Source: a virus. Taken from it: DNA of 64,000 nt. Numbering within the stretch: the first letter of the stretch is position 1; each line of letters begins with the position of its first letter. A model generated the notes under the pieces. It was given only the letters and a program-made list of their open reading frames with translations. It was not told the DNA's origin and did no database searches. The stretch lies in the IMG/VR virus record IMGVR_UViG_3300003320_000492, one strand, 5' to 3'. Positions 25,047 through 26,755 of this stretch are shown piece after piece. Made by a program: the position numbers and the translations under genes.

Positions 25047-25302
25047 CCCAGCCAGGAAAGTCGGAGCGATTCTCAAAGTCTTTCATTTCCTGTTCACTAG
25101 AGAACCCAAGAATTTCCCATCGCTGGCCGCTGAATTCGATTGTTCGTTCTCGTTTATTCTGATATCTTTTGGAACTGATTCCTTGGAGTTCTAAGAACTG
25201 TTCCAATTCGTACAACAACCCGGAAGGCTTTGCTAGAAATTCAGTTGCAAGATCTAGCAAAGCCTTTTCCAAAGCTTCTCTATTCGAGAACGATTTGGGC
25301 AT
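25036..25302 (-). CDS. hypothetical protein
   Basis: Start set to MPKSFSNREALEKAL. Overlaps both neighbours. Confidence 0.45.
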   Translation of the reverse strand: MPKSFSNREALEKALLDLATEFLAKPSGLLYELEQFLELQGISSKRYQNKRERTIEFSGQRWEILGFSSEQEMKDFENRSDFPGWDAL

Positions 25303-26755
25303 AGCGCTCACCATTTAGAATGTCTAGCATAGACTGGACCGGAGTCTTGCCTTCTAGAACATAACGGAAAGTGCTCTGAGACAGACCAGAAACCAAGGTT
25401 ACATTAGTCTGTGCCGCAGTAGTTGGGACATTGGTGTTTCTCGATGCCACATTCCAGAAAACTACGTGAGGTAGTTTGAATCCGGCAGCTTCAAACTTGC
25501 GCTTAGCTGCTTCGTAATTGGTTTCATTTCTTCCACCTCTTACGGAATCGAATTCCATGTCTGAAATGATATAGATAACCGCAGGAATATCCTCGGCATC
25601 TGCACCAGCTCGCTTTGCAGTATCAAGAATCAAATCAAATACCTTCTCGATATCAGTATTGAATCCCCAATCCGCAGTGCTGATGTTACGCAACTTATCC
25701 ATCAAAGTATTTCCAACCACCTTATTAAGAGCAGGCCGCTCAGAGAAGGTAATAAAGTAATCCTTGAATGGACCAGTGTTGTGTTCAGCAAAGTACAAAG
25801 CAAGTGATGATGAAACATCAATTGCTCGTGTGCTACCTGAAATGATCTGTCCCATTGAACCTGAGGTATCGGCAACAACTAGTGCGTTGTTTCCGTTTGT
25901 GTAATCAGGAAGTGAAGCCCAGAAAGCGTTTGCTGTCTGATCCTGTCCTTTTCGAACTACATCCAAAACCTCATATGTAGCAACGGTTCCAGCATTCAAC
26001 TTAGCCTTACCGGCAACAACATTTCCAAGGAACGCATCGTAACGATTTTCATCGTGCCGCTTGAATGCCTTAGAGTGCTTGCGTCCAGCCTGTGAAGGAA
26101 GCTTTCCGTAATCGATTTCAGACCATTCGTTTTCTGACATCTTCTGCTCTAGGAGTCCGATGTACTTACGAAGTGCCACGATTCGCTTACGGTATTCCTT
26201 ATTGGATAGACCCAATTCACTAGCAAGTTGACGAGCCTTTACCCGAGAATTTGCGCTTGAAGCATTCTCAGAAGGAAGCCACTTAGCCATTAGCGAAACA
26301 GAATTTCCACGACGAACATCTAACTCGTCTAATTCGAACTGGTTCGTAACCATCTTTCGAATTGTCTCAGTTACTCCGCCGTTAAATTCGTTGTAGCCAT
26401 AAAGATCAATCACATCATCCCAGCGACCATATTCAGGAATGAATCCGATTACTTTCTCAGCCGCAGCCAAGTCAATTCGAATCAAATCCTTAAATAGCGC
26501 ACGGAACAAAGCACGCTCTCCCTGTCCACCACGAATGTCACGCAAATAGAATAGTGCTCGAATCGCTAGCTGGCGGTCTTCTTGCAGTGCCTTACGGAAC
26601 AAAGTTCGGGCACCAGGGATATCATTCCGCTTTGCACCAGCAAGAGCGAAGAAATCCAACACTGCATTTGTAGTTGTTGAGTGAGTCACTGCGCCATTTT
26701 CGGTGCGAGCATTCTTTGTACCCTGTGCCTGCAACTCTGCTAGAAATGAACCCAT
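25280..26755 (-). CDS. rsr: Ro60-related TROVE-domain protein with vWA/MIDAS domain
   Basis: 491 aa. HEAT-like N-terminal repeats (LFYLRDIRGGQGER...). C-terminal vWA with MIDAS ALVVADTSGSM. Architecture matches Ro/Rsr. Confidence 0.8.
   Translation of the reverse strand: MGSFLAELQAQGTKNARTENGAVTHSTTTNAVLDFFALAGAKRNDIPGARTLFRKALQEDRQLAIRALFYLRDIRGGQGERALFRALFKDLIRIDLAAAEKVIGFIPEYGRWDDVIDLYGYNEFNGGVTETIRKMVTNQFELDELDVRRGNSVSLMAKWLPSENASSANSRVKARQLASELGLSNKEYRKRIVALRKYIGLLEQKMSENEWSEIDYGKLPSQAGRKHSKAFKRHDENRYDAFLGNVVAGKAKLNAGTVATYEVLDVVRKGQDQTANAFWASLPDYTNGNNALVVADTSGSMGQIISGSTRAIDVSSSLALYFAEHNTGPFKDYFITFSERPALNKVVGNTLMDKLRNISTADWGFNTDIEKVFDLILDTAKRAGADAEDIPAVIYIISDMEFDSVRGGRNETNYEAAKRKFEAAGFKLPHVVFWNVASRNTNVPTTAAQTNVTLVSGLSQSTFRYVLEGKTPVQSMLDILNGERYAQIVLE

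What the first reader, a model, noticed from the sequence alone, without database searches (positions are those of the whole stretch)
25280..26755. Phage-encoded Ro60/TROVE-vWA protein embedded in the tRNA array
The 491-aa product has the Ro/Rsr architecture: alpha-helical TROVE repeats followed by a vWA domain with MIDAS DTSGS.

In bacteria, Rsr is known to act with Y RNAs, including a tRNA-like class (YrlA) that is encoded next to rsr, and to be involved in structured-RNA quality control. Here the gene sits between tRNA blocks and is flanked on both sides by the ACAGCAAT cassettes and by two acceptor-closed tRNA-like RNAs. These are obvious candidates for its RNA partners.

I believe Ro-like genes have been noted in some large actinobacteriophages, but I cannot verify that here. 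A Ro gene with a multi-copy candidate Y-RNA battery would be unusual.
Basis: partly seen in the sequence, partly recalled or inferred. Interest (0 to 1): 0.65.

Follow-up and report, generated by a model that had tools for sequence, protein, structure and literature searches.

The report
Phage Ro-like protein with cognate RNAs
A phage gene for a ring-shaped RNA-binding protein of the Ro60 type sits among seven small structured RNAs that share one conserved stem-and-bulge signature, and the same protein–RNA pairing recurs in hundreds of unrelated phages, which points to an apparently undescribed branch of the Ro/Y-RNA particle family.

Summary
The 491-aa ORF (25280-26755, minus strand) is real. 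It has a Ro60 fold: an alpha-helical repeat ring plus a vWA domain with a complete MIDAS. By sequence it is not TROVE. It belongs to DUF2828+DUF7788 (PHROG 850), which occurs in 711 phage records and is already labelled "Ro-like RNA binding protein" in Mycobacterium cluster-L phages.

The new result concerns the RNAs. The "ACAGCAAT cassettes" are seven stem-closed RNA modules on the gene's strand, three upstream and four downstream. Each has a covarying 7-8-bp terminal stem, a conserved 5'-side bulge NN-ACAGCAAY, and a variable interior. One interior is a YrlA-like permuted tRNA, one holds a T-arm, and one encloses a whole tRNA.

The same module lies beside this gene family in 59/89 loci (strict pattern; 1/89 on the opposite strand) and in 68/80 independent bacterial-assembly loci (2/80 opposite). 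Hosts include Mycobacterium, Listeria, Staphylococcus, Enterococcus, Bacillus, Campylobacter and Felix O1-like phages. Classical TROVE-type phage Ro (Bxz1) uses GGCCGAA-type Y RNAs instead.

Rfam misses these RNAs, and I found no description of them. Best reading: a second Ro lineage with its own Y-RNA class. Binding and function are untested.

The parts
25280..26755 (-). Ro-like protein gene, 491 aa. Family: DUF2828 + DUF7788, PHROG 850 'RNA-binding protein'.
   Evidence: The ORF is. Pfam gives DUF7788 6e-47 and DUF2828 3e-29, with no TROVE hit. PHROG 850 matches full length at 1e-145. The AF2 model has pLDDT 85. The top 13 Foldseek PDB hits are Ro60/Rsr/TROVE.
25901..26755 (-). N-terminal alpha-helical repeat domain (residues ~1-285), the predicted Ro-type ring. 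It is basic (pI 9.4) and carries the invariant motif RDxRGGQGER at residues 72-81.
   Evidence: Secondary structure comes, invariant columns, and the pI. The Foldseek alignments to Ro60 span the full length.
25283..25900 (-). C-terminal vWA domain (residues ~286-491) with a complete MIDAS: D296-x-S298-x-S300, T367, D399.
   Evidence: Foldseek ranks 14 onward are vWA domains.
29305..29364 (-). Cassette C1. Stem UUAGGCAC/GUGCCUAG, bulge GA-ACAGCAAU, inner hairpin. It ends 4 nt before tRNA-Ser.
   Evidence: The stem is in the MFE fold, z = -3.2.
27751..27818 (-). Cassette C2. Stem UUAGACAC/GUGUCUAG, bulge GU-ACAGCAAU. It ends 4 nt before tRNA-Thr(UGU).
   Evidence: z = -3.4.
27190..27255 (-). Cassette C3. 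Stem UUAGGCGC/GCGCCUAG, bulge UA-ACAGCAAU. It ends 4 nt before tRNA-Pro.
   Evidence: z = -3.9. R1 scores 32 bits, E 0.0055.
23649..23763 (-). Cassette C4. Stem UUAGGCGC/GCGCCUAG, bulge UA-ACAGCAAC. It encloses a complete, unpermuted tRNA-Gln(UUG) at 23664-23736 and ends 4 nt before tRNA-Arg.
   Evidence: The orthologue in L001 has anticodon AUG. The phage carries a second tRNA-Gln(UUG) at 27499-27571.
23331..23418 (-). Cassette C5. Stem UUAGACCC/GGGUCUAG, bulge UG-ACAGCAAU, non-tRNA-like interior. It starts 0 nt after tRNA-His and ends 7 nt before tRNA-Tyr.
   Evidence: z = -2.4.
23131..23253 (-). Cassette C6, the YrlA-like RNA. Stem UUAGACAC/GUGUCUAG and bulge AA-ACAGCAAU, followed by an anticodon-arm-like hairpin, a T-arm, a closed acceptor-like hairpin and a D-arm.
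   Evidence: Rfam YrlA scores 39 bits (gathering 69), E 5.5e-6, over the full model. R1 scores 107.7 bits. Covariation is; z = -3.4.
22908..23013 (-). Cassette C7. Stem GAGACAC/GUGUCUC, bulge UU-ACAGCAAU, interior of four hairpins including a T-arm (GUGGUUCGAUUCCGC). It ends 5 nt before tRNA-Phe.
   Evidence: z = -4.4. Orthologues occur in L001, L002 and L003 with stem GAGACGC/GCGUCUC.
22829..29585 (-). The part of the tRNA array (14 tRNA genes) that is interleaved with the cassettes and the gene. The tRNAs are the presumed punctuation for processing.
   Evidence: Spacing between cassettes and tRNAs was computed from the coordinates.

Best explanation
The gene encodes a divergent Ro60-type RNA-binding ring protein: a HEAT-like repeat ring plus a vWA/MIDAS domain, in the DUF2828/DUF7788 family.

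It is co-transcribed with a set of small RNAs that act as its Y-RNA equivalents. Each RNA is closed by a 7-8-bp terminal stem of semi-conserved sequence (5'-..G-R-C-N-C / G-N'-G-Y-C..-3'). The stem is followed on the 5' strand by a bulge, NN-ACAGCAAY. An A-rich 3' strand and a near-invariant G lie after the stem. This stem-plus-bulge is the predicted docking site for the protein, as in canonical Y RNAs, where Ro60 reads mainly the conserved 5' strand of a bulged terminal helix.

The interior of each RNA is a variable 'effector' module:
- simple hairpins (C1-C3, C5);
- a T-arm-bearing fold (C7);
- a circularly permuted tRNA mimic like YrlA (C6);
- an ordinary tRNA (C4).

In this phage the RNAs are embedded in the tRNA polycistron. 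They are probably released by the tRNA-processing enzymes, because they abut tRNA 3' ends and stop 4-7 nt before the next tRNA 5' end.

By analogy with Ro/Y RNPs, the RNAs would tether or gate the ring and recruit host factors, either exoribonucleases such as PNPase or tRNA-handling enzymes. The purpose would be to survey or protect structured RNAs, above all the phage's own tRNAs, or to neutralise a host defence.

Shown: the fold, the RNA structures, and their linkage to the gene. Inferred: binding, processing and function.
For: Protein:
- The AF2 model is confident.
- The top 13 Foldseek PDB hits are all full-length Ro60/Rsr/TROVE structures, including Thermus phage phiLo Ro60.
- In BFVD, TROVE and 'Ro-like' phage proteins follow the DUF2828 group.
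- The MIDAS is complete and the N-terminal domain is basic.

RNA structure:
- Six ACAGCAAT copies and one ACAGCAAC copy carry covarying closing stems. All fold with that stem in the MFE structure, z -2.4 to -4.4.
- In a 20-sequence alignment of the YrlA-like class, 92.7% of cells pair, against 71.5% in shuffles (0/500 reach the observed value) and 27-46% when partners are slid. Seventeen of 24 pairs show double changes.
- The T-arm, acceptor and D-arm helices were not imposed by the selection of sequences.

Linkage to the gene:
- The strict pattern gives 143 cassettes on the gene strand, 2 on the opposite strand and 2.6 in shuffles. Of these, 116/143 lie within 500 nt of the gene.
- 59/89 loci have a cassette within 1.5 kb on the gene strand, against 1/89 on the opposite strand. 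The relaxed pattern gives 86/89 against 16/89.
- In the replication set of 80 bacterial/archaeal-assembly loci, 68/80 have a cassette on the gene strand against 2/80 opposite (187 vs 2 cassettes).
- CM R1 gives 111/112 and 24/24 hits on the gene strand. These include lineages not used in training: LeBron 77 bits, Porthos 83 and 71, PBC2 76 and 65, Felix O1-like 49.5.
- In the reverse test, 19/41 stem-closed motif loci hold the gene on the same strand and none hold it on the opposite strand only.

Co-transcription:
- LeBron has gene, three cassettes, then a terminator, with no tRNA within 4 kb.
- Listeria LP-048 has promoter, three cassettes, then the gene.

Specificity:
- TROVE-type Bxz1 gp220 has GGCCGA(A/G) Y-like RNAs and no ACAGCAA cassette.

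Precedent from papers:
- Ro60 binds the conserved 5' strand of a terminal bulged stem (bioRxiv 10.1101/312249).
- phiLo Ro60 binds upstream stem-bulge-stem RNAs with a CGAA bulge and engages host PNPase (PMC12135203).
- Bas63 gp130 is a Ro60 structural homologue upstream of that phage's tRNAs, and it counters the ppl defence (bioRxiv 10.1101/2024.10.10.617714).
Against: - There is no sequence-level homology to TROVE. hhalign against a true TROVE phage protein aligns only the MIDAS region at 49% probability.
- Foldseek TM-scores to Ro60 are moderate, 0.35-0.57.
- There are no binding or expression data.
- In the reverse test, 22/41 stem-closed loci showed no gene in the DNA held. Many of these are short or edge-truncated, but a few have more than 4 kb on both sides.
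- KVP40 carries the gene but no stem-closed cassette.
- Pairing in the closing stem of the 143 pattern-found cassettes is true by construction. For that stem, the weight rests on strand asymmetry, shuffles, covariation in pair type, and CM hits.
- The function (RNA quality control versus anti-defence) is an analogy.
Confidence: 0.7

Rival explanations
1. The cassettes are cis-acting elements of the transcript rather than free Y-like RNAs. They could be processing, stability or autoregulatory sites. Examples are structured 5' leaders that guide pre-tRNA maturation, or operators through which the protein controls its own mRNA.
For: - In the window, 5 of 7 cassettes end 4-7 nt before a tRNA 5' end, and 3 start 0-2 nt after a tRNA 3' end (coordinates). 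One encloses a tRNA.
- In Listeria and Campylobacter phages the cassettes lie in the 5' region of the gene's transcript.
- KVP40 has a bare ACAGCAAU 20 nt upstream of the start codon.
Against: - LeBron, Staphylococcus and Mycolicibacterium loci carry the cassettes 3' of the gene with no tRNA nearby. They therefore follow the gene, not tRNAs, and are not confined to a 5' UTR.
- The elaborate, conserved tRNA-mimic interior of one cassette per locus is hard to explain for a simple operator or processing site.
- This rival still needs the protein, or another factor, to read ACAGCAA. It overlaps with the main explanation.
Confidence: 0.15
2. The protein is a vWA/MIDAS protein-binding factor that does not bind RNA, for example a direct inhibitor of a host defence protein. 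The neighbouring RNAs then work independently, for example as tRNA-like decoys for host anticodon nucleases or modification enzymes.
For: - There is no TROVE sequence signal.
- vWA/MIDAS domains are classic protein-protein modules (ranks 14-50).
- Bas63 gp130 counters a protein defence system (bioRxiv 10.1101/2024.10.10.617714).
- LeBron gp53 alone is toxic when overexpressed (PMC13148394).
Against: - Full-length structural matches are to Ro60 rings rather than to vWA domains alone.
- The repeat domain is basic.
- The strand-specific coupling of gene and cassettes holds across phages of Actinobacteria, Firmicutes, Proteobacteria and Campylobacter.
- A different RNA motif accompanies the TROVE family. 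This argues for co-evolution of protein and RNA.
Confidence: 0.1
3. The cassettes are selfish repeats (MITE-like inverted-repeat elements) or chance matches with no link to the gene.
For: They are short, repeated, bounded by inverted repeats, and variable in copy number (1-8 per locus).
Against: - The strand bias is extreme: 138:1 and 187:2.
- Shuffles give 2.6 cassettes against 143 observed.
- The arms covary instead of being conserved, which is unlike transposase-recognised ends.
- The cassettes lie next to the same gene in phages whose proteins share only about 30-50% identity.
Confidence: 0.02

Closest known systems
Bacterial and phage Ro60 (Rsr, TROVE family) with YrlA-type Y RNAs. Examples: Salmonella Rsr/YrlA and Mycobacterium phage Bxz1 gp220 (Chen et al. 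2014, PMC4201824).
   Same: - Ring of helical repeats plus a vWA/MIDAS domain.
- One or several small RNAs encoded within a few kb on the same strand.
- Each RNA is closed by a 5'/3' stem with a conserved 5'-strand motif.
- One RNA carries a permuted tRNA mimic: T-arm, closed acceptor, D-arm.
   Different: - A different Pfam family: DUF2828+DUF7788 against TROVE+vWA_Ro60. There is no profile-level similarity beyond the MIDAS region.
- The RNA docking motif is ACAGCAA on a G-R-C-N-C stem, not GNCGAA / GGCCGAA.
- Rfam's YrlA model scores these RNAs at 34-48 bits, below its gathering score of 69.
- An extra anticodon-arm-like hairpin precedes the T-arm.
Thermus phage phiLo phiRo60 with Yrl1/Yrl2 (PMC12135203; PDB 9l5y).
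   Same: - A phage-encoded Ro ring with adjacent stem-bulge-stem RNAs.
- It is a structural match to the window protein: E 7.5e-7 to 9.1e-7, TM 0.49-0.54.
- It offers a plausible model for recruiting host PNPase.
   Different: - The phiLo RNAs carry a CGAA bulge, number two, and lie upstream of the gene.
- Here the motif is ACAGCAA, there are seven RNAs, and they are interleaved with tRNAs.
- Sequence identity is only 13-14%.
Felixounavirus Bas63 gp130 (PhageMaP preprint, 10.1101/2024.10.10.617714) and Mycobacterium phage LeBron gp53 (PMC13148394).
   Same: - LeBron gp53 belongs to the same protein family: tblastn gives 45.6% identity.
- Felix O1-like phages carry a family member directly upstream of their tRNA array. 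By its described position, Bas63 gp130 is presumably this gene.
- The Bas63 authors guessed that some 'tRNAs' might be Y RNAs.
   Different: - Neither paper identifies the RNAs.
- This analysis locates them: LeBron L081 ~5460-5720, and the Felix O1-like phage L083 6355-6484.
- In 237 Felixounavirus records the RNA is unannotated or mis-annotated.
- I did not verify the Bas63 sequence itself.
Small stable RNAs inside phage tRNA clusters (T4 species 1/2, RNAs C and D). This comparison is from my own knowledge and was not checked here.
   Same: Non-tRNA small RNAs are embedded in a phage tRNA polycistron and released by tRNA-processing enzymes.
   Different: I know of no Ro-like partner or ACAGCAA-type module for the T4 RNAs. 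T4 was not examined.

Membership tests
Ro60 / TROVE (Pfam PF05731 + PF25045 vWA_Ro60) | Significant match to the TROVE and Ro60-vWA sequence profiles. | tested here: not met
   Neither family was reported at E <= 0.1. A family HMM does not hit any Ro60 PDB chain. The positive control, Bxz1 gp220, hits both at 9e-50 and 4e-54.
Ro60 / TROVE (Pfam PF05731 + PF25045 vWA_Ro60) | Fold: a ring of alpha-helical (HEAT-like) repeats closed by a C-terminal vWA domain. | tested here: met
   The AF2 model has pLDDT 85. The top 13 Foldseek PDB hits are all Ro60/Rsr/TROVE over 505-583 aligned columns, probability 1.00, E 5e-8 to 1e-5, TM 0.35-0.57. Ring closure itself was not inspected.
Ro60 / TROVE (Pfam PF05731 + PF25045 vWA_Ro60) | MIDAS motif (DxSxS...T...D) in the vWA domain. 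| tested here: met
   D296, S298, S300, T367 and D399 are invariant in 40 homologues.
Ro60 / TROVE (Pfam PF05731 + PF25045 vWA_Ro60) | Binds Y RNA through a conserved bulged terminal helix. | not testable with these tools
   Only genomic co-occurrence and RNA structure were shown.
DUF2828 + DUF7788 (PF11443, PF25043) / PHROG 850 | Profile matches above the curated thresholds, over the full length. | tested here: met
   DUF7788 scores 160 bits (cut-off 27.1) and DUF2828 102.5 bits (cut-off 29). PHROG 850 matches at 1e-145 over residues 1-486. There are 6961 homologues, all with the same two domains.
YrlA (Rfam RF02553), for cassette C6 at 23131-23253 | Score at or above the family's gathering threshold (69 bits). 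| tested here: not met
   39 bits, E 5.5e-6, over the full model length. Relatives score 34-48 bits.
YrlA (Rfam RF02553), for cassette C6 at 23131-23253 | Permuted tRNA-like module in the order T-arm, closed acceptor-like stem, D-arm. | tested here: met
   In 20 homologues the T-arm and D-arm pair in 100% of cells and the acceptor hairpin in 83%, with compensatory changes.
YrlA (Rfam RF02553), for cassette C6 at 23131-23253 | Encoded within 4 kb of the Ro gene on the same strand (criterion of Chen et al. 2014). | tested here: met
   It lies 2.0 kb downstream on the same strand.
YrlA (Rfam RF02553), for cassette C6 at 23131-23253 | GNCGAAN0-1G motif in the 5' strand of the Ro-binding stem. | tested here: not met
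   The 5' strand carries ACAGCAAU instead, and ACAGCAA is invariant in the 20-sequence alignment. The outer-stem pairs of the Rfam model are non-canonical in the alignment. Bxz1's Y RNAs do carry GGCCGA(A/G).

The most novel reading that the evidence does not exclude
DUF2828/DUF7788 proteins are a second, deeply diverged Ro lineage with their own universal RNA 'address': a G-R-C-N-C stem plus an ACAGCAA bulge.

The lineage is spread over hundreds of phages of Actinobacteria, Firmicutes, Proteobacteria and Campylobacter, over prophages, and possibly over giant viruses and eukaryotes.

Any RNA placed inside that address is delivered to the ring, whether it is a hairpin, a permuted tRNA mimic or a genuine tRNA. 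This would make the system a programmable phage RNP that protects or surveys the phage tRNA pool and disarms host defences such as ppl.

The window's lineage has expanded the set to seven or eight RNAs, which are matured by tRNA punctuation.
Probability: 0.5. Interest if true: 0.85.

Novelty: new variant of a known kind. Interest (0 to 1): 0.75.

Why it matters
Ro60/Y-RNA particles are a long-studied RNA-surveillance system, and a human autoantigen, whose bacterial and viral roles are still unclear.

- This analysis gives a large phage protein family a concrete RNA partner with a defined recognition element. The family so far has only a structure-based label, one toxicity phenotype (LeBron gp53) and one anti-defence phenotype (Bas63 gp130).
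- Questions that were speculative become directly testable. What does the phage Ro-like protein bind? Which part of the RNA is the address and which is the effector? Does the tRNA mimic recruit host tRNA enzymes or nucleases?
- It explains conserved unannotated gaps, and mis-annotated 'tRNAs' and mini-ORFs, next to this gene in hundreds of deposited phage genomes.
- It shows that Rfam's YrlA model misses this class.
- The pairing of two protein families with two RNA motifs offers a natural system for studying how Ro-RNA specificity evolves.

Tried and rejected
- Megablast of the locus against GenBank phages found no match, so no close sequenced relative exists.
- phmmer and a family HMM against PDB sequences returned only noise: protein A, S21.
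- NCBIfam returned nothing meaningful.
- The Rfam gathering scan of the window found only tRNAs.
- The second Rfam YrlA hit at 23588-23716 (23 bits) was rejected. It is the known tandem-tRNA artefact, joining the T-arm of tRNA-Gln to the D-arm of tRNA-Arg, as Chen et al. warn.
- ACAGCAA copies at 21179 and 24103 (inside ORFs, no TAG-type stem) and at 41958 and 48450 (plus strand) were treated as chance.
- The sigma70-like match at 26781-26754 was rejected as a promoter for the gene, because its -10 hexamer overlaps the start codon. Promoter and terminator counts in the region are not above shuffles.
- No RtcB, RNA ligase or PNK was found among about 20 large window ORFs screened.
- Two Wolin-lab reviews could not be read, so prior mention there cannot be excluded.
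- Full-text searches for DUF2828, DUF7788 and related accession terms (PF11443, PF25043, phrog_850) found no paper on this family's RNA partners.
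Full report
**1. The observation**

The ORF at 25280..26755 on the minus strand is real. It encodes 491 aa and has an RBS, GGAAGG, 8 nt upstream of the ATG. It lies inside an array of 32 tRNA genes, all on the minus strand, spanning 22829-48607.

The window is a lytic-type phage genome. It encodes ribonucleotide reductase, DNA polymerase, primase-helicase, exonuclease, endonuclease VII, ThyX, endolysin and large terminase. 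GC content is 40-50%. It has no close relative in GenBank phages. Its own contig is 83 kb and related metagenomic contigs are about 76 kb.

**2. The protein**

Pfam does not report TROVE. It reports DUF7788 (residues 290-470, 6e-47) and DUF2828 (3e-29), with VWA_2 only below threshold. PHROGs places the protein full-length in phrog_850 'RNA-binding protein' at 1e-145. Neither the single sequence nor a 40-sequence HMM reaches any Ro60 chain in PDB.

An AlphaFold2 model built on 40 homologues is confident, with pLDDT 85 and pTM 0.86. Its best 13 Foldseek matches in PDB are all full-length Ro60/Rsr/TROVE structures:
- Xenopus Ro (2i91, 1yvr, 1yvp);
- human Ro60 cryo-EM structures;
- Deinococcus Rsr (2nvo);
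- a 'Trove domain' crystal structure (9kop);
- Ro60 of Thermus phage phiLo (9l5y).

These hits have E 5e-8 to 1e-5, probability 1.00, 12-14% identity and TM 0.35-0.57. Only after them come isolated vWA domains.

In the viral structure library the nearest neighbours are DUF2828/DUF7788 proteins of phages and giant viruses (TM 0.6-0.85). They are followed by TROVE-domain and 'Ro-like' phage proteins at about 1e-8.

The MIDAS is complete and invariant: D296, S298, S300, T367, D399. The repeat domain is basic (pI 9.4) and the vWA domain acidic.

As a control I examined the classical mycobacteriophage Ro, Bxz1 gp220. It hits TROVE (9e-50) and vWA_Ro60 (4e-54). hhalign between it and the window's family aligns only the MIDAS region, at 49% probability.

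The protein therefore has the Ro architecture by fold but belongs to a separate sequence family. That family is large:
- 711 GenBank phage records, including Escherichia/Salmonella Felix O1-like, Mycobacterium cluster L, Vibrio, Listeria, Staphylococcus, Campylobacter, Enterococcus and Bacillus phages;
- 6961 database proteins scoring E <= 0.001;
- at least 528 stretches in bacterial and archaeal assemblies.

SEA-PHAGES already labels the cluster-L members, such as LeBron gp53, 'Ro-like RNA binding protein'.

**3. The RNAs in the window**

ACAGCAAT is over-represented, with 10 copies against 2.4 expected. Reading the minus strand shows that six copies, plus one ACAGCAAC variant, are not bare motifs. 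They sit inside modules of this form:

5'-UUAG-R-S-M-C / NN / ACAGCAAY / interior of 35-110 nt / G-K-S-Y-CUAG-3'

The two arms are complementary and change in a compensatory way between copies: AGACAC/GUGUCU, AGACCC/GGGUCU, AGGCGC/GCGCCU, AGGCAC/GUGCCU.

The seven modules are:

| Module | Coordinates (minus strand) | Position relative to the gene |
|---|---|---|
| C1 | 29305-29364 | upstream |
| C2 | 27751-27818 | upstream |
| C3 | 27190-27255 | upstream |
| C4 | 23649-23763 | downstream |
| C5 | 23331-23418 | downstream |
| C6 | 23131-23253 | downstream |
| C7 | 22908-23013 | downstream |

None occurs in the remaining 19 kb of the tRNA array. All fold with the closing stem in the minimum-energy structure, with z-scores from -2.4 to -4.4.

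The interiors differ:
- C1-C3 and C5 hold hairpins.
- C7 holds four hairpins, including a T-arm.
- C6 is a permuted tRNA mimic: an anticodon-arm-like hairpin, a T-arm, a closed acceptor-like hairpin and a D-arm. It gives a full-length but sub-threshold match to Rfam YrlA, 39 bits against a gathering score of 69, E 5.5e-6.
- C4 encloses a complete tRNA-Gln(UUG). This duplicates another tRNA-Gln(UUG) in the array. Its orthologue in a relative has anticodon AUG, which suggests it is not kept for decoding.

Five cassettes end 4-7 nt before the 5' end of the next tRNA. Three begin 0-2 nt after the 3' end of the previous one. I infer that RNase P and the 3'-processing enzymes release them from the polycistron.

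**4. Comparative test**

I fetched 80 IMG/VR loci encoding relatives of the protein at 42-82% identity. A strict pattern (7-bp arms, 2-nt gap, ACAGCAA, interior up to 135 nt) gave these counts:
- 143 cassettes on the gene's strand, in 58 of 81 sources;
- 2 on the opposite strand;
- 2.6 in shuffled sequence;
- 116 of the 143 within 500 nt of the gene.

Within 1.5 kb flanks, 59/89 loci have a cassette on the gene strand against 1/89 on the opposite strand (138 vs 1 cassettes). With a relaxed motif the figures are 86/89 against 16/89.

The closest relatives keep largely the same ordered set of modules as the window. L001, at 82% amino-acid identity, has the same seven in the same order. L002 has eight and L003 six.

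Across 131 distinct copies the consensus is G-R-C-N-C in the 5' arm, with one freely covarying pair (GC 45, AU 43, CG 20, UA 20). ACAGCAA was fixed by the search pattern used to collect these copies. The 3' strand is A-rich, and a near-invariant G follows the stem.

**5. The YrlA-like class**

Most lineages have one cassette with an interior of about 100-115 nt and the T-arm / closed acceptor / D-arm layout. On a 20-sequence alignment with an explicit structure:
- 92.7% of cells pair, against 71.5% in shuffles (0/500 reach the observed value) and 27-46% with slid partners;
- 17 of 24 pairs show double changes;
- the T-arm and D-arm pair in 100% of cells, and the acceptor-like hairpin in 83%, with all seven of its pairs covarying.

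Pairing of these three inner helices was not imposed by how the sequences were chosen. In this alignment ACAGCAA is invariant.

A covariance model built from this alignment (R1) found 112 hits at E <= 0.01, of which 111 are on the gene strand. They include lineages not used for training:
- LeBron, 77 bits, in the unannotated gap after gp53;
- Enterococcus phage Porthos, 83 and 71 bits;
- Bacillus phage PBC2, 76 and 65 bits;
- a Felix O1-like coliphage, 49.5 bits, inside its tRNA array.

Rfam's YrlA model scores these at 34-48 bits, so standard annotation misses them.

Reading the sequences shows clear transcription units:
- LeBron has gene, three cassettes, then an intrinsic terminator, with no tRNA within 4 kb.
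- Listeria LP-048 has a sigma70-type promoter, three cassettes, then the gene.
- Staphylococcus phage S-CoN_Ph9 has three cassettes directly after the gene, partly under 'hypothetical' mini-ORFs.
- Campylobacter phage Los1 has two cassettes directly before the gene.

The Felix O1-type RNA is conserved in 237 records and is almost always unannotated or mislabelled.

**6. Controls in the other directions**

*Reverse association.* I scanned IMG/VR for TAGACNCNNACAGCAAT alone. Of the hits with a closing 3' arm, 19 of 41 loci held the Ro-like ORF on the same strand and none held it on the opposite strand only. Many of the remaining loci are short or truncated stretches. Of the hits without a closing arm, 10 of 79 held the ORF.

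*Specificity.* Around TROVE-type Bxz1 gp220 there is no ACAGCAA cassette. There are instead three Y-like RNAs with a GGCCGA(A/G)...GUCGGUUA 5' strand, which is the published GNCGAA-type motif. The middle one is tRNA-like.

*Replication.* In 80 loci from bacterial and archaeal genome assemblies, the strict cassette occurs on the gene strand in 68 loci (187 copies), against 2 loci (2 copies) on the other strand. All 24 R1 hits at E <= 0.001 are on the gene strand.

**7. Interpretation**

Published work supplies the precedents:
- Every characterised Y RNA has a terminal stem formed by its 5' and 3' ends. Ro60 reads mainly the conserved 5' strand of that bulged helix. The rest of the RNA is a modular effector-binding domain, which in YrlA is a permuted tRNA mimic (bioRxiv 10.1101/312249; PMC4201824).
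- Thermus phage phiLo Ro60 binds two upstream stem-bulge-stem RNAs with a CGAA bulge and engages host PNPase (PMC12135203).

The cassettes described here have the same design, with a different address (ACAGCAA). They travel with a different Ro-fold family.

I therefore conclude, at about 0.7 confidence, that they are the cognate Y-like RNAs of this protein. The biological role is inferred only. Candidates are quality control or protection of the phage tRNA pool, and sequestration of host nucleases or defence factors.

Two published phenotypes fit an active role. Loss of gp130, a Ro60 structural homologue directly upstream of the tRNAs in Felix O1-like Bas63, sensitises the phage to the ppl defence. 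The authors speculated, without identifying any, that some 'tRNAs' are Y RNAs (bioRxiv 10.1101/2024.10.10.617714). LeBron gp53 is moderately toxic when overexpressed alone (PMC13148394).

**8. Caveats**

- The Ro relationship is structural only.
- TM-scores to Ro60 are moderate.
- Pairing of the closing stem in pattern-found cassettes is true by construction. For that stem the evidence is strand asymmetry, shuffles, variety of pair types and CM hits.
- KVP40 has the gene but only a bare ACAGCAAU in its 5' UTR.
- A few stem-closed cassettes in large contigs had no gene within the DNA held.
- The literature I could search is limited to open-access papers and bioRxiv, and two Wolin-lab reviews could not be read. 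Prior description of these RNAs cannot be excluded. No Rfam family matched the short cassettes at E <= 10 in the window.

**9. Verdict**

The protein itself is a member of a known and already labelled family. The multi-RNA arrangement is normal for that family.

The finding nevertheless leads to a well-supported and apparently undescribed RNA class, and to a Ro-like RNP variant that is widespread in phages. The window carries one of the largest sets seen, seven RNAs matured by tRNA punctuation, including both a permuted and an unpermuted tRNA module.

Novelty: new variant of a known kind. Interest: 0.75.

Noticed in passing
L082 (Listeria phage LP-048, NC_024359) 3469-4020: A near-threshold ROOL RNA match (90 bits, gathering 99.1) lies between the tRNA array and the Ro-like gene. 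An RtcB-like ligase, a 'tRNA amidotransferase' and an RNA ligase lie just downstream. Together they form a dense RNA-biology island.
   Followed up: no
window 23664-23736 (-) inside cassette C4 (23649-23763): A complete tRNA-Gln(UUG) is wrapped in the cassette stem. It duplicates the tRNA-Gln(UUG) at 27499-27571. Its orthologue in L001 reads anticodon AUG. In L003 the corresponding position after the gene holds a permuted tRNA mimic instead (L003 8646-8748).
   Followed up: partly
L084 (Vibrio phage KVP40) 3974-3981: KVP40's family member has no stem-closed cassette nearby. It does have a bare ACAGCAAU 20 nt upstream of its start codon, downstream of a T4-early-like promoter. This may be an autoregulatory site.
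   Followed up: no
window 29365-29512 and 29064-29214 (-): Other tRNA spacers contain long-range stems, for example GAUGAAUG...CAUUCAUC enclosing GCUGAGCAAU, which resembles ACAGCAAU. These may be further, more divergent modules.
   Followed up: no
window 43651-43723 (-): A tRNA was detected only by Rfam (33.5 bits) and missed by ARAGORN. tRNA-Tyr at 23254-23323 is only 70 nt, with its anticodon called at position 30, and it abuts cassette C6 with no spacer.
   Followed up: no
L209 (Mycobacterium phage Bxz1) 24800-25230: The TROVE-type Ro gene gp220 is preceded by three Y-like RNAs that share GGCCGA(A/G)...GUCGGUUA and ...CACCAUGUCU strands. Only the middle one is tRNA-like, and Rfam YrlA scores it at only 32.5 bits locally.
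   Followed up: partly
LeBron gp53 (L081 4001-5419) versus Bxz1 gp220 (L209 25245-26903): SEA-PHAGES uses the single label 'Ro-like RNA binding protein' for two Pfam-distinct families: DUF2828+DUF7788, and TROVE+vWA_Ro60.
   Followed up: yes
BFVD hits; L255 (Promethearchaeota MAG contig) 1412-1659: The same fold and family occurs in giant viruses: Pithovirus, Marseillevirus, CroV and Mimiviridae. A family member on an Asgard-archaeon MAG contig has two cassettes upstream. I did not check whether the giant-virus or eukaryotic members have the RNA.
   Followed up: no
window 23775-25076 (-) and 27828-28769 (-): Two protein genes interrupt the tRNA/cassette array. One is a 433-aa protein with an N-terminal hydrophobic segment and TPPTT-rich linkers, with no family hit. 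The other is a 313-aa membrane protein matching phrog_200 'lipoprotein'.
   Followed up: no
L088 (Enterococcus phage Porthos) 118-468: A phage-encoded tmRNA (143.7 bits) lies in the same tRNA region as two YrlA-like cassettes.
   Followed up: no
L085 (Staphylococcus phage S-CoN_Ph9) 5519-5866; Felixounavirus records: The cassette RNAs are annotated as short 'hypothetical protein' CDSs, or as tRNA-Thr or tRNA-Met, in several deposited genomes. These are likely mis-annotations.
   Followed up: partly
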